In this document: positions 9,181 through 55,126 of the stretch, piece by piece
How the letters are laid out: each line of letters starts with the position of its first letter
How positions within the stretch are numbered: position 1 is the stretch's first letter
Origin: Felis catus
Lineage: Eukaryota
DNA length: 64,000 nucleotides
Direction: 5' to 3'
NCBI RefSeq assembly: GCF_018350175.1
Contig: NC_058368.1
Coordinates: forward strand, 107,014,001-107,078,000
Made by a program: the position numbers and the translations under genes
The notes under the pieces: generated by a model
The model's database searches: none
Told to the model about the DNA's origin: nothing
What the model saw: only the letters and a program-made list of their open reading frames with translations

Positions 9181-10942
9181 TTCTAGGAAGTTAAAAAATT
9201 CTTAGGAGGATGTATTTTTAAATCAGAAAGGGATTGTTCGATTAGTTTTGTATTCTAACTAAAATTAAATTTTGAAAAAGAGCTTAATAATCTGTATTCT
9301 CAAGTGTTTCTGGGCAAGACACAGACATGGAAAAGGAGCTTCATTGTCTAGTGGATGAAACATTTAGTCAGACGAGCTCATGCACAGCCAGTGACTGGTG
9401 TGGAAAGAACCACTCCTCTGAGGGCTCTGGCCAGGCCTACTGTTCCAGGGAAGCCGCCAGCACCTGGCGGGATTGAGTCCTATGTCTAATGCTATTCAAT
9501 ACCATCCCTTTGCATTTGATGTACAAAACAGAAGACTGAAATTTGAAGAGGAAAGGGTTTGGAATGCCAAAACGCACCTCAAACTATTAGACTCACAGCT
9601 TCTGGAGAGTTTTTAAATGTCCCCTTCCTCAAAATGTTACATATCTTCGGGCAATTTCTTCATCATGTAACTTTCAATAATCTTGGCCAATATAATCGAA
9701 CTTCCTTTGAGATTCTGTCGCTGAATGTCTTTCTTGCTAATTGGACAAATAAGACATTTCCTGTCATGCCTAAGAAAATAAAAAAGTTTATAGGCAAGAA
9801 TAAAAATTACATTTCCTATTTTATTTTCTGATTAAGTTTACTTATTGAGGGCGGGTAACAAGAATTTTCTTAAATTGAATCTTCTGGGTATTGGCTCTAG
9901 AATTTGTTCACATTTCTCCATCATTGGCCTCTCCCAGTGAATAAGTCTTTTACCAAGACTGAAAATAGTTCATGGTTCTCACTTCTAGACAAGAGGCCAG
10001 TAGGAGAACTGAGGCGGAGACCAGGAACCAGCCCCACACTTCCCAACTCAACAGGTGGGGAACATGGGATTTTTATGTTCTTTGGGGACTGGGTCCCCAC
10101 TCACCGTTATCTGTCAGTGTCTGCCTCTGAGATTTTCTTAGGAGAGACACCTAGGGACAGCGGTGCTCTGCATAGACTGGAGAGGAGTGGTGAAGGAGGC
10201 AGGCGAAACTGGAAAGTTAGGAAGGTTGGGAGGTGAGGTCCTAGGTCCCCAGAGCCCGGACCTAGGATGGGACAGATGGTTCCCCCAGCAGTGCGCGGGA
10301 CACCGAGCGGAGAGCAGAGACACGGAGGAGCAGCAGCAGGGGAGACGCGAAAAGCACCGCAAACGCCAAGAGGGGAGCGCGCACGGACCTGGGCGGGGCA
10401 GAGTGGGGAAGGGTCACGCCGGGACGTCACCCGCTGTGGGCCGGGGGAGGCGAGCGGGGCGGGAGCTGCGGGCGCCTGCCGGGGGCTCTGAGACCCGAGC
10501 TCCGCCGATGAGGTCAGTGGAGCCGACGCGCCGGGAGGAGGGCAGTGGAGCCCCCGGACGCGGGAGTTGCGAGGCCGGCGGAGGGGCGGGACGGGACGGG
10601 AAATGGGACGGAGAGCTAGGGCCGTGGGAGGAGGAACGAGGGGGCGTCGGCGCTGGAAGCCGGAGGCGGCCCGACCGGGATCGTTTCCTTCCGGAGAGGA
10701 GGCCGGCTCTGGACAGAGGCGGGGACGGGGGGCGTCCAAGGGCGGGTGACGGGGAAATAGCGCGGCTCTCGCTTCTCCCGGGCTGGCAGCGGTGCTGCTT
10801 GTGGCTCCTCCTCGGGGCCAGTCCGGAGCCCGGCGGCGGGGGGGAGCGGGAGGCGGAGAGCGAGGGCGGGGGCTCGGGAAGGAGGGAGGAGGGAGGGACC
10901 AGGCGCGCCAGTGACAGGGTGGCAGCCTAGGAGCGGACGCGT

Positions 10943-11013
10943 TGCCGCCGCCGCCGCTCCACCTCCTCCTCCAGCAGCTCCTCTCGCTGCTGCCGCCGCC
11001 ACTGCCGCCGCCG
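10943..11013 (+). repeat. Interrupted GCC/CCT trinucleotide tract upstream of the CHSY3 start codon
   Basis: gccgccgccgccgctccacctcctcctccagcagctcctctcgctgctgccgccgccactgccgccgccg. Confidence 0.7.
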
Positions 11014-11263
11014 GGAGAAGTTTCACTCCCGACCCTCGTTTGGAGCCCGGACCTAGAGCCGAGCAGGGAGCGCGGCCGGCAGCGGCAACCCGCAGTGGGC
11101 CAGGCGCCCGGAGCGCTCCGACCGTGAGCCGGCGTCGGCGCCTTGGCGGCGGGCAGCGGCCCGGGCTGGGGGCTCTGAGGCGGAGGAGGGGCGGGTGTGA
11201 GCCGCGGGACCCGCGCGCAGCGCCGCAGCCACTCAGCTAGCGTCCGCGCCGGGGGCAGTCGCG

Positions 11264-12071
11264 ATGGCCGTGCGCTCCCGCCGCCCGTGGATGAGCGTGG
11301 CACTGGGGCTGGTGCTGGGCTTCACCGCCGCGTCCTGGCTCATCGCCCCCAGAGTGGCCGAGCTGAGCGAGAGGAAGAGACGCGGCTCCAGCCTCTGCTC
11401 CTACTACGGCCGCTCGGCCGCTGGCCCCGGCGCTGGCGCGCAGCGGCCGCTCCCCCAACCTCAGCCCCGGCCGCGGCTGGAGCAGTCGCCGCCCCCCGCG
11501 CGCCAGGAGCTTCAGGGGCCGCCGCTGCCAGAGGCAGCGCCTGGAGCAACCAGTTTTCGGAGCAGCCCCTGGCAACAGCCACCTCCGCTGCAGCAGCGGC
11601 GGCGAGGACGCGAGCCCGAAGGCGCAACGGGGCTGCCAGGAGCCCCCGGGGCCGAAGGGGAACCCGAGGAGGAGGACGGGGGCGCGGCTGGGCAGCGGAG
11701 AAGCGGCCGGCCGGGGAGTAGCCACAACGGCAGCGGGGACGGGGGCGCTGCCGCCCCGAGCTCCCGACCCCGGGATTTCCTGTATGTGGGAGTGATGACC
11801 GCGCAGAAGTACCTGGGCAGCCGCGCGCTAGCGGCGCAGCGGACCTGGGCGCGCTTCATCCCCGGCCGCGTGGAGTTTTTTTCCAGTGAGCAGCCCCCCA
11901 ACGCTGGAATGAGCCAGCCCCCGCCACCCCTGCCTGTCATCGCGCTACCGGGGGTGGACGACTCCTACCCTCCCCAGAAAAAGTCCTTCATGATGATCAA
12001 GTACATGCACGACCACTACCTGGACAAGTATGAGTGGTTTATGCGCGCCGACGACGATGTCTACATCAAAG
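11264..12071 (+). CDS. CHSY3: Chondroitin sulfate synthase 3, coding exon 1 (cytoplasmic tail, TM anchor, Pro/Gly-rich stem, start of the Fringe-like GT31 domain with DDD motif)
   Basis: ORF from gcgATGG: MAVRSRRPWMSVALGLVLGFTAASWLIAP...FLYVGVMTAQKYL...DDSYPPQKKSF...WFMRADDDVYIK, recognised as CHSY3. Ends AAAG|gtgacc (donor GT 12072-12073), 808 nt, phase 1. Confidence 0.96.
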
Positions 12072-14509
12072 GTGACCTCCCAGCGCCGGCTGTCCCGCCT
12101 GCCCGCTGCCCCCCACCCTCTTCTCCCGAATCCTTCCTCTGCAACCAGCCCTAATCCCTGCCCAGCCCCTCTCTGCTTGGCTGCCAGCACGTGCTCTGAG
12201 CTCCTGCAGCCCCCAGCCCTCGGTCCCCACCCCTCGCATCCGCCCACCATGCCTAGTCCGCTCCTCCTCTTCTGCTGCAGTCTGGACCCTCCTCACACCT
12301 GACCGGTTTTATTAGCCTTTCTCACTCTTGCTGGTCTCCTTTCCGCCCAGCGCTTGCCCCTACTCTTCACTCTGTGTCAACGCTGAGGAAAGGGACTTTA
12401 GGGTTAGCCAAAGGCGTTTCCTACTCTGTCCTCCTCGGAAAGCCCGGGTGGTAGTAGTTTCCCAAATCTATCTAGAGGGGCGTGTCCTCAGTAAAGGAAG
12501 GGAAGACCGAGGAAGCGGGCGAGAGCCGGTCTGGATACGGGTGTTCTAGCTTTATTCCACAACCCTTTTGTTTTGATTGGATCTAGCGCGGTTTCAGAAA
12601 TGGTGAGATTAAGGAATTATTTTCGCTATTCGGGACCGTTCCCTCTGCGTTTCCTTCCCTCTCTTACGACCCCGTCAAGCACCGGGAGTCCTTGAGCACC
12701 CACACCCACATCGCTCCAGCGCGCACCTCCTTCCAGCCACAGCAGTGCCGCACAGAGTCGGGCCCTAACCCCCACCCCGCCCCCCGCCCACCTCAATAAA
12801 ACCCCGGGCGGAGGAGAGCATTTTCAGGAATTGGTGGTGCGCAGAAGGTGAGAGCGCGGGTGACTTATCCAGACCCCAGGAGCTCCGAGCTGTATTAGCA
12901 TGTACTAATGTGGATCCTTTCCAGTCCATCTTGGTGGCGGCGGCGATAAGCAGAGGCTTGGAGTCCTTCCCCAAAACCACGCGCAGCCACAGCAGGAGAA
13001 AACTTTGTCAGTTTTAAAAGAGGCGCGGTCTTTCACCCTCATCGTGGGTGGCTCTGGCCAGAGGTTTCTAAACTCAGCAGAGAGAAGTTCCTAAGAGCGG
13101 GAGTAAATCTTCCCAGTACCGCCCGCCGTGGAGATGGAGATGGGCGCAAGGGAAGTCTCAGGGTTGTGTTGAAGTAGGGTCTCCCAGTGCTTCCTCCGTT
13201 TCCCAGCTTCTTGGTCAAAGCGGGGCAGCCCTTCCTTACTTTTTTAAGAAAGCCTCGTTGCTTTCTCCTTATCCAGGTAGTCTTTCACAGGATTCAAGGA
13301 AAAACAAACAAATTCCGTTTTGGCTCAGGGAGTGAATGTGGAGTAATAACTAGAGATTTCTTGGGGTTAGGTTGGGAAGAGCGAAGTCATTCCATTGGTG
13401 ATTCGATACAAGAATAAATGGTTGCCTTTCTAATGAATACGGTATCTTACAGACAGATTTCAGATGTATAGCTATCTATAGCTATAAGTGATAGATCCCT
13501 TCTAGTCCCCTTGTCTTCTGCGTATGGTTGAAGTCACAAAGGTTTCCTGGCAGAAGTTTGCCACACTTGACGGAGAATTTCTAAAATGCACGAACAGCAT
13601 CTACTTCTGTCATTTCTCTTAATGGTTTGAAAGACTGTCCTTCAGAACACCAAAGTGCCATATTCATTCCATCTCTATTAAGAATGAAATGCATTTTGAA
13701 TTAAGAACCCAATAATAGCTAAAACTCACTGAAATCCAAGGGGGGAGGGGGGGAGGTGTGGCATGGCTTCAAGATAAATGACTGCAGATGAGTTCTCATC
13801 AAAAAACGATAGTAAAGATGCTGACTGGGAATACAAAGAAGGTGGCTACTTCATTGTATCGCTTTGTAGAATACCAAATGTGTTTTAGCTACACAATTTG
13901 ATGTTTAAGTGGTTTTTCTTGATGAACTTACATACTGTAAGGAAACCAATTATATTATTATTTTAACAAATGTTTATTTTTTCCAAAAAGGTGCTTTTCA
14001 AAGTTCCCAAGTTAAATTCGAACACAACTTTAATATTCTTTCTCTCTCTCAATTTTTGTTTGTATGTGACTCAAGTTTAGTTCAGGACAAAACACGACCA
14101 ATTTATCAGGAAAAAATACTAATCGGATATCGACAATCTGCCAATCAGTGCTGAATATAAATGTTATTTTCTGAAAATTTTATCATTAACTCAGATATGC
14201 TAAGAAATTTATCATTAATCTCCTTATCATAATCTCACCTTTTACAAAAAAAGTCTGGTGATTATTATACTTAAGGTTTTCCAGTGACCTTGAGTAGAAG
14301 GTTAAGAACATTTTATTATGACTTAATTAGTAATGGAAATTTCATAGTTTTAAAGTAATAGAATATTCAGAGAGGTCTTTCTTCCTTTCAGCTGTATTAT
14401 GACTTTTGGGGAGTTTGTGCACAATGTTGAAAGGTGTTTCCCTTACTTTGTATGTTCTAAATGATTACGAAATTAGGAAAAGGAGAGATTGTTGCCTTTC
14501 TCTTTGTAG

Positions 14510-14793
14510 GTGATAAGTTAGAAGAGTTTCTTCGATCACTCAATAGCAGCAAGCCTCTCTACCTGGGCCAGACTGGCCTGGGGAACATTGAAGAACTTGG
14601 AAAATTGGGGCTGGAGCCTGGAGAGAACTTCTGTATGGGAGGACCTGGCATGATCTTCAGTCGAGAGGTTCTCAGGAGGATGGTGCCACATATTGGTGAA
14701 TGCCTCAGAGAAATGTACACGACTCATGAGGACGTGGAAGTAGGACGATGTGTTCGACGCTTTGGTGGAACTCAGTGCGTCTGGTCTTATGAG
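14510..14793 (+). CDS. CHSY3: Chondroitin sulfate synthase 3, coding exon 2
   Basis: Acceptor cctttctctttgtag|GT completes the split Gly codon: (G)DKLEEFLRSLNSSKPLYLGQTG...FCMGGPG...HEDVEVGRCVRRFGGTQCVWSYE. Donor GAG|gtaaga at 14794. 284 nt; 808+284=1092 nt, ending in phase 0. Confidence 0.96.
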
Positions 14794-17700
14794 GTAAGAC
14801 GGGCTGTGATGAAAATGTTCACATGTTATAGATTCTTGCCAGTTTATTGCCTGGGGCAATGACTATGTTTATTCTCTTGCTTGAAAATGACAGCATCAGC
14901 CGTGTATGGACACAAGGGTCATTGTGGGGAATAACTTTCTTCACAGAGCTGAGGCCTGTGGGAGGTGTTTTTTATTAGCATGGCCCTTAACTTTAAGCAG
15001 GAATCTGTATATATGGTCACATCTCTGGAAGATGCTCTTTCCCCTCTATTTGCTTTATTGGTGTTGATTGATATACATGCTTATCCATTTCCTGTCTCTA
15101 ACAAGGGGACTAATTTTATTCTCTTGGGTTGTAACTTTTAGCATTTGGTACTTGGTCGGTTGTTGCTGTTGTTGTTTTGGTTAGGTGTATAATTGCATCT
15201 CTTTGTTTCCGAACAGTTTAAGTTTTCTTGGGAGATTTTCAGTTGGAAATTTAACATGCATGTTTTTAAATCATAGGAAAAGTTAACTCATAGGGTATCA
15301 TTTATGATAGATTTATTCACAAAATAAAGGGGGCTTGTTACCTGGGAAAATAGAAGAAGTTATGAAGATGTTAAGTAACTGTTTAGTATTATGACTGGTT
15401 CCCTACAATTGGTCTCTGTCTGCCGTTCTATTTCCTGAACAGCAGCTGTTGTTTATATAATCTGAGTTAGGAACTGTTCTTTTATTGTGATAATTAGTTT
15501 TATGAAATACTCTGGGATTTTTTTTTCCTTCAGAAATTTGTTTTGAAGAGAAATACAATTTTGTTTGAAATAGTTTTCCTAAAGGTTAGTGTTAGTAAGA
15601 ATTTGATTTGACATTTGGTGTATTGCAGTTTTGAGTAGTTTGGTTTTCAGGTCGTTGGAGTTTGATATACTCAGCTGCACACATATGTAAATTATAACTT
15701 AACTCATTTTTTTATCTTTTCAAATTTTTCTTGTCTCCCGGTATAGAAGAAACATGAAAATAGGTTCCTTGAGAAGTCATGATACCTCAAGATTACACAG
15801 TTACTTTGTAATTACTTTAGTAATTACTGTGTAATTACTTTAGTTAATTTTGCTTTATTTTTAATACTTTGTAGTATTTACACTTTTAGGGAATATTTCT
15901 TGTATCTATTAAAGAAACTAAAAATGATCAATAAATAGTTATTTGGAATATGTACTATGCAAATTTAAAATTGTTATTACCTCATTTCTTTTGATACTAA
16001 AATTGTAATTTTTCTTTTGTATAACTATGACTACCCTGTAGAATAAAAATGTTTGCAATGCAAGAACATTACAGTTAAAAATAGGTATTTTAGAATCAAC
16101 TCACTGAAAAATATTTGTTTCTCCATTTACCATAAAACTAACTGAAAGGCATAAAACAAATACACAGTATAGAAAACACATTAGGTTGATTTTGTTTATA
16201 TGAAGATACAACTTTGGAGACATTCACTCTGTATGGATGAGTAAACAAAATTATTGATATTTAAAAATAGAGATGGAAACTTATAATGTTTTATTTGGTA
16301 CTTTATTGCCTTAACATCACATAGAAGGTCTTAAGGAACCTTTTGTTTAAATGTCCTTCCCTTCAAGTTTTCATTGATCCTGCTGTCTTCATCTAGCTGT
16401 GTACCCATTTATGTTCCAGGAGAGTAAAGTAAACTCAGGTGACCTACATGCTCAAGAATCGACTTAATATTTTATTTTTAATATAGGCATTTTATAGTGG
16501 AACTTTAGGTCATATCATAAACTGACATAAAAGAACAGATAAACCAAGAAATTGCAAATCTTACAAGATGTAACATCATGATCACAGTATTTTCATTAAC
16601 TTTTCAAAATACATTTAAATTTACACTCATACTAGGTTATCAACTGAGTTCACAATCTATATGAAGAAATAATTTCTATCTTTTTTTCCTCGCAAAAGAA
16701 AATATTATTCTCTAAAGTTGTGCTGTTTTAGAAGGTTGACTTTATCTTTTGCTAAACAATTACATAGAATTTACTTTGTTTTGGAATATCAGTTTTTAAA
16801 GAGCTATTTAAACAGAATTTTGAGGGGGCATTGCTTTGGTAGTACAAAGTCTCAGGTCTTATTTAAAGGAATGATGGAACATTTCATGGCCAAAGTATTT
16901 ATTAAATAGCATCTGTTAATAAATTTAGTAATGGTAAATATACAATTAAGTAATAATTTAAGCATGTTAATATTAGGATGCGTTCTGTGTTATATGGGAC
17001 TCCTGAGTAGATCAGTTGGATCACAGCCAAACTAGGGTTTTCCAGTTTAGATTTTAGGTTAGTTCATCTGATGTCCATTCTTTGCTACTGTTCACATTAT
17101 TTGAAAAGAATCCTCTATTTTACTGTACATTGGTGTCCTCAGTAAAGATGAAATTGTACATCTGGTCGTATAACAAGCTATGAAAGGATCTTTAACTTTG
17201 TTTTCTTTTTTCTTTTAAAAGATCCATCTGTGATAGAATTCTCTTAAAATCTTGAATTTCCTTTATCTATACCTTTCATGGATTTCAGAATTTTGTTTGG
17301 CTTTTCCTCCTAATAAAAGTTCTTACAGAGTTAAGAGCACTGCCTATGAATTTTGAGTTTAAATATATGAAGCATTCATGGTGCAGTATTATCTTTTAAA
17401 AATGATAAACAGGCTTGAAGATCTTCCAGGAAGAGGATTGGGCAAACATAATTAAACTATATAGACTTTGTAGCTTTTCTTTATGATAAATTACAATTTT
17501 TATAAAACCTAGAAATCTTTTAGTATTATTTACTGTTCAATTAAAGTGTACTTTCTCTGTTTTATATACAATTTAGCATTAATTGAGAGAGAGAGAGGAT
17601 ACACTTGAACTTGGGTTTGAGTTCTGTTGTCTTTGGTAAGTTAGTTCTTTGAGCCTTGTTTAGTTCAACTGAAATTGGACATTGTAACAGTGCTACATAA

Positions 17701-29719: not shown

Positions 29720-29924
29720 TTATTTAAAAAATTTTTTTATGTTTATTAATTTTTTTGAGAGAGAGACAGAGCATGAGCAGGGAAGGGGCAGAGAGAGAGG
29801 GAGACACAGAATCTGAAGCAGGCTCCAGGCTCTGAGCTGTCAGCACAGAGCCCAGCATGGGGCTTATACTCATGACCTGAGCCAAAGTTGGCCCCCCAAC
29901 CGACTGAGCCAGCCAGGTGCCCCC
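29720..29924 (-). mobile_element. CanSINE
   Basis: Consensus-like with small internal deletion. Confidence 0.88.
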
Positions 29925-50401: not shown

Positions 50402-51327
50402 TTTTTTTTTCTTTTTTAAAAATATAATTTATTGTCAAATTGTTTTCCATACTACACCCAGTGCTCATCCCAACAAGTGCCCTCCTCAATGCGCATCACC
50501 CACTTTTCCCTTTTCTCCACCCCCATTAACCCTCAGTTTGTTCTCAGTATCCAAGGGTCTCTTATGGTTTGTCTCCCTCGTCCCAACCCCCCCCCCATAA
50601 CTTTTTTTTCCCTTTCTCCTCTCCCATGGTCTTCTGTTAAGTTTCTCAAGATCCATATATGAGTGAAAACATACGGTATCTGTCTTTCTCTGACTTATTT
50701 CACTTAGCATAATACCCTCCACTTCCATCCATGTTGCTGCAAATGGTTAGATTTCACTCTTTCTCATTGCCAAATAGTATTCCATTGTATATATAAACCA
50801 TGTCTTCATTTCAGGTAAAAGGCTAGTATCCAAAACCTGTAAAGAACTCACCAAACTCCATACCCGAAAAACAAATAATCCAGTGAAGAAATGGGAAGAA
50901 GACATGAATAGACACTTTTCCAGAGAAGACATCCAGATGGCCAACAGACACATGAAAAGATGCTCAGCATCACCCCTCATCAGGGAAATACAAATCAAAA
51001 CCACACTGAGATACTACCTCATTCCAGTCAGAGTGGCTAAAATGAACAAATCAGGAGACTATAGATGCTGGCGAGGATGTAGAGAAACGGGAACCCTCTT
51101 GCCCTGTTGGTGGGAATGCAAACTGGTGCAGCCACTCTGGAAAACAGTGTGGAGGTTCCTCAAAAAGTTAAAAATAGATCTACCCTATGACACAGCAATA
51201 GCACTGCTAGGAATTTACCCAAGGGATACAGGAGTGCTGATGCATAGGGGCACTTGTACCCCAATGTTGATAGCAGCACTTTCAACAATAGCCAAATTAT
51301 GGAAAGAGCCTAAATGTCCATCAACTG
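50402..51327. mobile_element. Younger 5'-truncated L1 with inversion (minus-strand 3'UTR 50402-50807; inverted plus-strand ORF2 C-terminus 50808-51327)
   Basis: ORF 50883-51353 [27 protein letters not shown]...[13 protein letters not shown]...CTPMLIAALSTIAKLWKEPKCPST is the L1 ORF2 C-terminal domain; adjacent opposite-strand 3'UTR with poly-T. Confidence 0.9.
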
Positions 51328-52039
51328 TCCTCTTTTTTTTATTGTCTGTTTGATGTTTTTATTTCTGTTGGTAGACCTGTATCACTAGGAACTTCCTTGA
51401 TAGAACTACTTTTGCAGTTTTGGATTGTGATATTTCCATTTTCATTTGTCTTGACCTATTTTATTTTTTTATTTTTCCTTTTTGATTTCTTCATTGATCC
51501 ATTCATGTTCAGTAGCATGTTATCTAATCTCCACCTATTTGTGGTTTTTCCATTTTTCTTCTTGTAATTAATTTCTCGTTTCATACAATTGTGGTCAGAG
51601 AAGAAGCTTAATAAGATATCATTTTTCTTAAATTTACTGAGACTTATTTTGTATCTAACATGTGATGTATCCTGGGGATTAGTGTATGTGCACCTTAGAA
51701 TAAGGTGTATTCTGTTGCTTTTAGATGGGATATTCTATACATATCTATTAAGTCCATCTGGTCTAATGTATTGTTTAAGGTTGATGTTTCCTTATTTATT
51801 TTTTGTGGATACTTTATCCATTGATGTGAGTAGATTATTGAAGTTCCTTACTATCACTGTATTGCTTTAAATCTCTCTCTTTGGTCTATTAATATTTGCT
51901 TTGTATATTTAGGTACTCCTTGGGTCCATAAATATTTACAACTGTTGTGTCCTCTTCTTGGGTTAACCCCCTTTATCATTATGAAATGCCCTGTTGGTCT
52001 TTTGTTACAATTTTATTTTAAACTATTTTGTAATCGATA

Positions 52040-52128: not shown

Positions 52129-52245
52129 CCCAAGCAGCTCTGCACTGTCAGCACAGAGCCTGCTGTGGGGCTTGAACTCATGAGACCGTGAGACCATAAC
52201 CTGAGCCTAAATCAAGAGTAGGATGCTTAACTGACTGAGGCCCCC
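52040..52245 (-). mobile_element. CanSINE nested in L1
   Basis: Consensus-like. Confidence 0.85.
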
Positions 52246-53574: not shown

Positions 53575-53781
53575 ACAAATTTTTTTTTAATGTTTATTTT
53601 TGAGACAAAGAGACAGCGCATGATGGGGGAGGGGCAGAGAAAGGCAGACACAGAATCCGAAACAGGCTCCAGGCTCTGAGCTGTCAGCACAGAGCCCAGT
53701 GTGGGGTTCGAACTCATGAACTGTGAGATCATGACCTGAGCCGAACTCAGCCCCTCAACTGACTGAGCCACCCAGGTGCCC
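53575..53781 (-). mobile_element. CanSINE nested in L1 5'UTR
   Basis: TSD ccttg(c/t)tgcactt. Confidence 0.88.
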
Positions 53782-54180
53782 TTCCTTGTTGCACTTTTAT
53801 CCTTTATTGTGGAGGGAGTTGTTCACAGTAAGGATGGAGAACTGGAGGGAGAACTTTTCAGTTCTTTTTCTGCAGGAGTTATTCCACATGTAGCTGTAGA
53901 TTTGGTGTGTCCAGGAGAGGAGGTGAGTTCAGGCCTTTGCTATGTCACCATCTTGGACTTTCCCTTCCCACAAAACTTATTTCTAACAGTCTGTTGATAC
54001 ACAGCAGTAACTCTAAGAGCATCGGAGAAGCATAGGTTAACTCTCTATAGTACTTGGGGGTGCTGGGCTGAGTTTTTCCACATTTATGGACACCTCTATG
54101 TTGTTCATCAGCTATTTCTTTTGCCTTAAATATGTGGGAAGATGTTAGGTAGTATAGTTGAAGTAAATTTAAAAATTTTC

Positions 54181-54496
54181 ATTTTATTTTTTTTAATGTT
54201 TTATTTATTTTGTGTGAGAGAGAGAGCACAAGTGGGTGAGGGGCGGAGAGAGAGGGAGACACAGAACCTGAAACAGGCTCCAGGCTCCGAGTATTAGGGT
54301 ATATACAACTCTGCAAAGGACCAAACATTGTAGGGCCATATGGTCTACTCCAACCTATTGCAGACGCCATAAAACTCTTTACTAAAGAGCCCCTCTGACC
54401 CCTTACATCCTCCATATTTATATTCTCACACGGAGTGTGAGATCATGACCTGAACCAGAGTCAAACACTTAACTGACTGAGCCACCCAGGCACCCC
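54181..54496 (-). mobile_element. CanSINE interrupted by an ND1 NUMT
   Basis: SINE 3' half 54181-54291 and 5' half ~54426-54496 flank mtDNA. Confidence 0.88.
54291..54425 (+). pseudogene. ND1: NUMT: fragment of mitochondrial ND1 inserted in a CanSINE
   Basis: Vertebrate mitochondrial code translation [45 protein letters not shown] matches the conserved ND1 motif [37 protein letters not shown]. Confidence 0.95.
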
Positions 54497-55126
54497 TACA
54501 TTTTTAAAAGGTTAAAAGTTTAAAAAATGTTCATTAAATAGTCATTTCTAGAAATTTTAATTTCTCATTTCATAGATGCTTTCTAAAGAATATTTTGAAG
54601 ACAGATTAGGGGATTTGGGAGGTAAATTTATTTCCAGAAAGGATTTCTCCAGATGAAGAAATTATTATCCATGATTAAGTCAGAGTAAAATATAAGATTA
54701 TAGGATTAAAAGTAAAAAAGTATATGTTTTAAACCTAACAATCCCAATACAATTATAAATATATGTGAACTTTTTGTTTGCATTGAAATTGTGTGTTGAT
54801 AGATAATTTTGCATTAATCTATACTTATAATTTAGAAAGATACAGTTAAGCAAAATATAAGAATTTTTATAACGCCTTTTTCACATTTTGAGAGTTAATA
54901 TTATTTCTCAGTTTTTTGTTGGGTCTATAAATTGAAATGTGTAACTTAGTATAAGAAATAACATATAAGGTTTTCACTGTGACTAACATTTTTTTGAAAC
55001 AGTTGGAAGAATATCAATAAAAAGTGGAATATATACTGTTTAATTAACATTCAAAAATATTACAGTGCTATGGAAACTTAGAGAATAGGTTTTAGAATTT
55101 GCTTCTGTTCAAGAATGGTTAAATTA

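What the first reader, a model, noticed from the sequence alone, without database searches (positions are those of the whole stretch)
54291..54425. Mitochondrial ND1 fragment (NUMT) patched into the middle of a CanSINE
Seen: a minus-strand CanSINE reads normally to ...caggctccgag and then switches to 135 bp that translate (mito code, no frameshift) as [35 protein letters not shown](TGA)PLTSSMFMF. The SINE resumes at (c)tcacacggagtgtgagatcatgacc. About 30 bp of SINE consensus (ctgtcagcacagagcccgacgcggggctcgaa, present in the other copies here) is missing, and there is no TSD around the insert. Known: this is the conserved N-terminal ND1 loop, and small NUMTs with target deletion are typical of NHEJ repair of a double-strand break. 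Inference: mtDNA was captured at a break inside an existing SINE, so the SINE gives a maximum age. A chimeric SINE-ND1 retrotransposition event is less likely but testable.
Basis: partly seen in the sequence, partly recalled or inferred. Interest (0 to 1): 0.75.

Follow-up and report, generated by a model that had tools for sequence, protein, structure and literature searches.

The report
Mitochondrial fragment inside a cat SINE
A 135-base scrap of an old cat-family mitochondrial gene replaces about 33 bases in the middle of a dead repeat in an intron; it is real, most likely patched a chromosome break once, long ago, and is an ordinary kind of insertion.

Summary
Confirmed. 54291-54425 is felid-type mitochondrial ND1, codons 27-71, set between two in-register halves of one minus-strand CanSINE downstream of a CHSY3 exon. 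It replaces 32-34 SINE bases. A contig identical to the window spans the right junction in 3 of 3 contig runs from three studies, at 1.2-1.8 times flank depth; no listed record spans the left junction. The insert differs by 16-17% from today's high-copy ND1, and all 5 of its TG dinucleotides are CG there, two of them in conserved Arg codons: an old nuclear fossil. The deletion removes most of the SINE's B box, and the insert adds a TTTT, so it is unlikely to have been mobile. Best reading: one end-joining capture at a break in a SINE already there (0.88). A 32-34-base loss is larger than usual (4 of 90 primate cases lost 30 or more). Empty orthologous alleles could not be tested. The scan noted the same kind of event in other repeats before (unchecked notes). 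Ordinary.

The parts
54178..54185 (.). candidate left copy of the SINE's target-site duplication (7 of 8 bases match 54497-54504); weak, A/T-rich
   Evidence: read from the sequence; the script found nothing longer or better
54186..54291 (-). 3' half of the host CanSINE with (CT)n stretch and A-rich tail
   Evidence: SINE reads align through 54291 (table 5)
54290..54291 (.). 2-base overlap (AG) that fits both SINE and mtDNA
   Evidence: 4 ND1-like contigs (table 8) and 4 of 7 mitochondrial loci align from 54290; SINE reads align to 54291
54290..54425 (+). NUMT: felid-type mitochondrial ND1, codons 27-71 at 54291-54425
   Evidence: 7 listed ND1-like contigs stop matching at 54425 (table 8)
54312..54314 (+). 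Arg34 codon decayed at CpG to Cys
   Evidence: Arg in 119 of 119 rows counted; C in 23 of 25 X22 reads
54396..54398 (+). Arg62 codon decayed at CpG to TGA (Trp in table 2, stop in the nuclear code)
   Evidence: Arg in 115 of 119 rows; C in 68 of 70 X22 reads
54426..54428 (.). three unassigned bases at the right junction (2-base duplication in the SINE, or filler)
   Evidence: mitochondrial matches end at 54425; the best-supported SINE joint resumes at 54429
54429..54496 (-). 5' (tRNA-derived) half of the host CanSINE; A box kept at 54476-54484, B box cut off after its first bases
54497..54504 (.). candidate right copy of the SINE's target-site duplication
14515..14805 (+). context only: coding stretch of chondroitin sulfate synthase 3 (CHSY3), about 39.5 kb upstream on the same strand as the ND1 sense
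   Evidence: E 3e-61 to PDB 9q8z_B and 9o4g_A; Pfam CHGN

Best explanation
A small NUMT made by one repair event. A full-length CanSINE (probably subfamily II, type A) sat in the intron. A germ-line double-strand break in it lost 32-34 bases, and end joining sealed the gap with a 134-136-base piece of the mtDNA of an ancestral cat, with a 2-base overlap on the left and a 1-base overlap or 3 filler bases on the right. The piece was then methylated and decayed as nuclear DNA, and spread through the population. It has no function: it has no start, a stop in the nuclear code, and the host SINE lost its B box. Shown: identity, junction anatomy, right junction in independent data, low copy number, CpG decay, B-box loss. 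Inferred: end joining as the pathway, SINE first, deletion and insertion in one event, and an age of several million years up to about 35 million.
For: Identity. Only one mtDNA-like piece in the window (tblastn of 4 ND1 proteins; blastn of 7 loci, plus one weak 35-base hit elsewhere). SINE halves in register with 34 profile positions missing and the same gap in genome-wide SINE reads. A 171-base contig, 54314-54484, 0 differences, in 3 of 3 contig runs from three studies; depth 10.8, 12 and 16.5 against 6.14, 7.7 and 13.8 for the flank contig. 20 of 24 listed runs, 11 studies, hold 0.88-0.94 of the words of 53800-54900. 22 and 21 differences in 131 bases from the high-copy ND1 contigs of X12 and X20. 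5 of 5 TG but 2 of 22 other T read C in nearly all high-copy reads, Fisher p 2.6e-4. Size, intronic site, short overlaps and small additions match human NUMTs (PMC9630118; PMC2567098).
Against: No listed record spans the left junction, none spans the whole stretch, and the junction contig overlaps the unique-flank contig by only 6-8 bases; the raw-read run had no depth over 54567-54760. A 2-base overlap is common by chance (inference). The loss is large: 4 of 90 primate NUMTs lost 30 bases or more, so part of it may be a separate event. NUMTs inside retrotransposons were rare in human (10 of 557; PMC3467031). By depth sums, other nuclear ND1 copies share T at three of the five TG sites, so only two are sure nuclear changes. 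No empty allele was seen, because no ortholog could be read.
Confidence: 0.88

Rival explanations
1. Born chimeric: during L1-driven reverse transcription of a SINE RNA the enzyme switched to a mitochondrial transcript antisense to ND1, copied 135 bases, and switched back 32-34 bases further along the SINE RNA. SINE and insert then have one age.
For: The + strand is the direction of first-strand synthesis for this minus-strand SINE, and a skip of SINE sequence with short overlaps is what a double switch would leave (sequence; inference). The SINE is among the more diverged in the window (11.5% non-CpG; 6 of 20 copies higher) and the insert is also old, so equal ages are not excluded.
Against: It needs two switches and an antisense template, with ends in mid-gene and not at a transcript end (inference). 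A literature search listed 13 papers, none of whose titles or abstract starts showed such a SINE-mtRNA-SINE product (listing only). In primates the neighbouring retrotransposon predated the NUMT in 93 of 103 cases and was of the same age class in 10 (PMC3467031). Plain end joining explains every feature.
Confidence: 0.04
2. Same repair event, but the patch was copied from an older nuclear ND1 copy and not from mtDNA itself.
For: Other low-depth ND1-like contigs are closer to the insert (9 of 84, 11-12 of 112, 15 of 136, 12 of 94 differences) than the high-copy ones (21-22 of 131); one begins at the same base, 54314, as the insert's contig (tables 4 and 8).
Against: By depth sums, table 3, the two closest long copies share at least 5 and about 9 of their differences with a present high-copy haplotype, mostly at third codon positions. 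That is the pattern of separate captures from mtDNA of different dates, not of nuclear drift from a common copy. One listed copy is no closer (17 of 89).
Confidence: 0.04
3. Assembly chimera of SINE and mitochondrial reads.
For: The left junction is not bridged by any listed record.
Against: The right junction stands without a difference in three independent assemblies; the insert is 16-17% from high-copy ND1 and carries two changes at conserved Arg codons; the SINE halves are in register.
Confidence: 0.02
4. A mobile SINE-ND1 chimera, with this locus as one of many copies.
For: The junction contig is 1.2-1.8 times as deep as the flank contig, so two copies are not excluded.
Against: The depth lies at or near that of other low-depth ND1-like contigs (5.3-10, 8.3-12.5 and 18-28 in the three runs) and shows no variants. 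A B-box motif was found at offsets 66-77 in 15 of 20 other copies and is cut off in the host; a TTTT lies inside the insert on the SINE's strand. That both defects block polymerase III copying is established knowledge, not tested here.
Confidence: 0.02

Closest known systems
Small NUMTs captured by end joining at double-strand breaks (Hazkani-Covo and Covo 2008, PMC2567098; Wei et al. 2022, PMC9630118)
   Same: Short mtDNA piece (human median 156 bp), overlaps of 1-2 bases or a few added bases at the joints, loss of target DNA, intronic site.
   Different: The loss of 32-34 bases is in the upper tail (4 of 90 at 30 or more). This copy is old, not species-specific as far as its decay shows.
NUMTs inside retrotransposons (Tsuji et al. 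2012, PMC3467031)
   Same: One retrotransposon continues on both sides of the insert.
   Different: There 10 of 557 human cases, called under-represented; here a felid SINE. Wei et al. found ultra-rare human NUMTs enriched in SINEs, so the class is known and its frequency is disputed.
The tandem 7.9-kb Felis Numt and the Panthera numt (as described in bioRxiv 10.1101/2022.04.04.487049 and PMC8662614; the original papers were not read)
   Same: Nuclear copy of felid mtDNA. One of the two high-copy ND1 haplotypes seen is probably such an array (inference).
   Different: This insert is 135 bases, low-copy, and differs from both high-copy haplotypes at 13 listed sites, so it is not a piece of that array.
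Feliform CanSINE subfamily II, type A (Walters-Conte et al. 2014, PMC4084570)
   Same: Host element: tRNA-derived head, A box without the type-B change, (CT)n and A-rich tail.
   Different: B box mostly deleted; the subfamily motif can be checked only in part.

Membership tests
NUMT | homologous to mitochondrial DNA | tested here: met
NUMT | joined to nuclear DNA in independent data | tested here: met
   right junction in 3 of 3 contig runs, 0 differences; left junction not bridged by a listed record
NUMT | differs from living mtDNA by nuclear-type decay | tested here: met
   two conserved Arg codons lost at CpG; 5 of 5 TG are CG in high-copy reads
End-joining capture at a break | blunt or short-overlap joints, small additions, no element-type duplication around the insert | tested here: met
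   2-base overlap left, 1-base overlap or 3 added bases right, no adjoining repeat; not specific to this pathway
End-joining capture at a break | an empty orthologous site in a relative | not testable with these tools
   no genome held; all 24 runs bear one organism code
CanSINE (host) | tRNA-derived head with A and B boxes, (CT)n stretch, A-rich tail | tested here: met
   81-85% to a neighbouring copy on both sides; A box present, B box in the deleted part
CanSINE (host) | target-site duplication around the whole element | tested here: inconclusive
   7-of-8 candidate in A/T-rich DNA
CanSINE subfamily II type A | diagnostic motifs of PMC4084570 | tested here: inconclusive
   A box lacks the type-B change and the subfamily I motif is not seen in the head; only the last 5 of 7 bases of the subfamily II motif survive beside the break, and 0 of 20 other copies had that motif in full
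Mobile chimeric SINE family | many copies with the same junctions | tested here: not met
   depth 1.2-1.8 times the flank, no variants; two copies not excluded
Mobile chimeric SINE family | intact internal polymerase III promoter and no early terminator | tested here: not met
   B box cut off, TTTT inside the insert
Tandem felid Numt array | kilobase units in tens of copies, near the array sequence | tested here: not met
   135 bases, low depth, 13 listed differences from both high-copy haplotypes

The most novel reading that the evidence does not exclude
The element was born whole: L1 reverse transcriptase left a SINE RNA, copied an antisense mitochondrial transcript, and returned to the SINE RNA. 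That would be a germ-line NUMT made through RNA by a double template switch, with SINE and insert of one age and no empty allele in any species.
Probability: 0.04. Interest if true: 0.6.

Novelty: new member of a known kind. Interest (0 to 1): 0.15.

Why it matters
Little, on the best reading: one more small NUMT. It has modest use as a nested marker (SINE absent, SINE alone, SINE with insert) for cat-family phylogeny, and as a 135-base sample of an ancestral felid ND1 (Phe69, where all 7 Felis rows printed have Leu). If the RNA template-switch reading held, it would show a route from mitochondrial RNA into the germ-line genome, which bears on the question whether NUMTs can arise through RNA.

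Tried and rejected
Whole-genome search for further copies and orthologs: no genome is held. An exact 22-base search of metagenome contigs for felid mtDNA found 0 matches; the protein-based scan gave 80 loci, of which I compared 13; the closest differs at 27 of 135 bases and none is felid-like. Raw reads as a junction test: run X22 was read to about 1 in 100 and left the unique flank uncovered. Rfam gave one weak hit (mir-9235, 28 bits against a gathering score of 95) 330 bases away, taken as chance. A larger broken NUMT nearby: no second ND1 piece in the window; a 35-base hit at 52208-52242 (E 0.005, one of 7 loci) was not followed. Exonisation: a crude scan found only weak donor-like (6-7 of 9) and acceptor-like sites; no RNA data were examined, so it is untested and not argued. 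Numerical dating from SINE divergence was dropped: the profile mixes subtypes and the tail mutates fast. Telling which high-copy haplotype is cytoplasmic: not settled. Literature: 'CHSY3' with 'numt' gave 0 papers; a search for a recalled primate precedent gave 0; searches listed nothing on this locus by title or abstract start. Two separate SINEs landing on either side of an older NUMT was rejected: the halves are in register and share one orientation.

Full report
Observation. It matches Pfam PF00146 (E 1.7e-12) and residues 27-71 of mammalian ND1. Of 4901 proteins found, the best 120 were listed; the top 40 are all felid ND1, the best at 96%. Among 119 of those 120 rows (one lacked the anchor motif), the insert's Phe69 occurs in 36 of 59 felid rows and 1 of 60 others, most of which are canids; no non-felid feliform is named among them. 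The donor was therefore most likely a cat-family mtDNA. No other ND1 piece lies in the window. A coding stretch at 14515-14805 is CHSY3; no further CHSY3-like long frame was picked out before the insert, so an intronic site is likely, but the intron number was not checked.

Host element. Both flanks match the window's other SINE copies (81% and 85% to the neighbour at 53575) and are the two halves of one minus-strand element in register. Against a majority profile of 20 window copies, 34 positions are missing. The host differs at 15 of 130 non-CpG and 6 of 14 CpG positions; 6 of 20 copies are more diverged and 14 less. By the motifs in PMC4084570 (passages) it is probably subfamily II type A, which that paper dates from about 35 million years ago onward; the test is incomplete, since 0 of 20 copies carried the subfamily motif in full. 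A 7-of-8 candidate target-site duplication flanks the whole SINE; it is weak.

Junctions. Laying four runs on 54261-54760 at 80% likeness showed the following. SINE reads of X22 align through 54291 and resume at 54429, with 34 letters between (best-supported joint, 2249 and 2246 reads by mate direction). Four ND1-like contigs align from 54290, as do 4 of 7 mitochondrial loci, so AG at 54290-54291 fits both partners. Seven listed ND1-like contigs stop at 54425. The three bases after it are either filler or SINE with a 2-base duplication, in which case the C at 54425 is shared and the loss is 32 bases. No repeat adjoins both ends of the insert. The deleted part holds most of the B box: the motif was found at offsets 66-77 in 15 of 20 other copies, and the host keeps only its first bases; the one pattern hit in the host lies at offset 31, a different place. 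The insert puts a TTTT on the SINE's strand.

Is it real? 20 of 24 listed runs, from 11 studies, hold 0.88-0.94 of the sampled words of 53800-54900; one may be the source of the window. A 171-base contig, 54314-54484, identical to the window, stands in 3 of 3 contig runs from three studies and crosses the right junction with 112 and 59 bases on its sides. Its depth is 10.8, 12 and 16.5, against 6.14, 7.7 and 13.8 for the unique-flank contig. Against this: no listed record crosses the left junction or spans the whole stretch, the two contigs overlap by only 6-8 bases, the tool warns that filters drop records and that some counts were cut, and the raw-read run did not cover the flank. The left junction thus rests on the register of the SINE halves.

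Age and decay. The high-depth ND1 contigs of X12 (286) and X20 (892) differ from the insert at 22 and 21 of 131 bases. The raw reads of X22 hold two high-copy haplotypes in about equal shares; the insert differs from both at 13 listed sites (which hid 34 rows). A tandem array of 38-76 copies is described for cats (bioRxiv 10.1101/2022.04.04.487049, passages; PMC8662614, passages), which would explain the second haplotype; I could not settle which is cytoplasmic. All 5 TG dinucleotides of the insert, but only 2 of 22 other T, read C in nearly all high-copy reads (p 2.6e-4; two T sites that differ in one haplotype only were not counted). Two of the five destroy Arg34 and Arg62, which are Arg in 119 and 115 of 119 rows; these are surely nuclear changes. 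The other three may be donor states, since other nuclear copies share them by depth sums. One CpG is left. NUMTs are methylated while mtDNA is not (PMC9630118, passages). All 7 Felis rows printed have Leu69; if the host is a Felis, which I infer but did not show, the donor predates that change. The age is several million years at least and about 35 million at most; both bounds are inferred.

Mechanism. End joining with mtDNA as filler explains every feature. In 90 primate NUMTs, 49 lost no target base and most losses were small; 7 of 8 with overlaps on both sides had losses (PMC2567098: passages, sections 8 and 9, all of Table S1; its two .doc supplements could not be read and hold further classes and comparison data). 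In Table S1, 4 of 90 lost 30 bases or more (42, 60, 155, 317). So this event is on the large side, but within the known range. The template-switch reading needs two switches on an antisense template and gains nothing from the data (0.04). Copying from another nuclear ND1 copy (0.04) is disfavoured because the nearest copies differ at sites shared with a present haplotype. A mobile chimera (0.02) is disfavoured by depth and by the lost B box; an assembly chimera (0.02) by the three independent contigs.

What is known. NUMTs within retrotransposons are described: 10 of 557 in human, called under-represented (PMC3467031, passages and one section), while ultra-rare human NUMTs are enriched in SINEs and introns. 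Intronic sites are common (PMC515365, passages). SINEs cover 10-11% of a felid genome, so about one random insertion in ten would land in one (inference). NUMT lineages shared across Felidae are known for cox1 (PMC12491944, passages). Passages of PMC11507379 and PMC10764098 added nothing on SINEs. My searches did not show this locus in print, but subscription papers and supplementary catalogues were not searched. Earlier notes of this scan report the same kind of event in an L1 of this genome and in three other genomes; they are unchecked and did not change my reading.

Verdict. A real, old, low-copy NUMT inside a SINE: a new member of a known kind. Interest 0.15.

Noticed in passing
contigs aligned to window 54314-54425 (runs X12, X15, X20): Another, longer nuclear-looking ND1 copy begins at the same base as the insert's contig, carries a 9-base tandem duplication and 11-12 other differences, and runs 168 bases past 54425. 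By depth sums it and a 338-base contig of X20 also have T at 54396: parallel decay of the same Arg codon.
   Followed up: partly
window 54295-54425: Two high-copy ND1 haplotypes about 10% apart occur in roughly equal shares in run X22; one site (54347) varies within one of them, as expected of a tandem array. Its depth relative to the flank differs much between runs (about 8 to 65 times).
   Followed up: partly
window 10001-12200 and 14515-14805: CpG island (GC 0.72, CpG o/e 0.84) with a 317-codon + frame, followed by a CHSY3 coding stretch.
   Followed up: partly
window 50778-51350: A 191-codon stop-free + frame without a Pfam hit; it looks like a piece of L1 ORF2 by recall only.
   Followed up: no
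window, SINE copies near 29732 and 26467: Two other SINE copies have internal deletions near the same region, without any insert.
   Followed up: no
window 52208-52242: Weak 35-base match (83%, E 0.005) to one mitochondrial locus, L011, inside a SINE-like region; probably tRNA-like sequence or chance.
   Followed up: no
PMC2567098 Table S1, numt id 99: The 13 deleted bases look Alu-like by recall, with overlaps on both sides: possibly a primate counterpart of this event.
   Followed up: no
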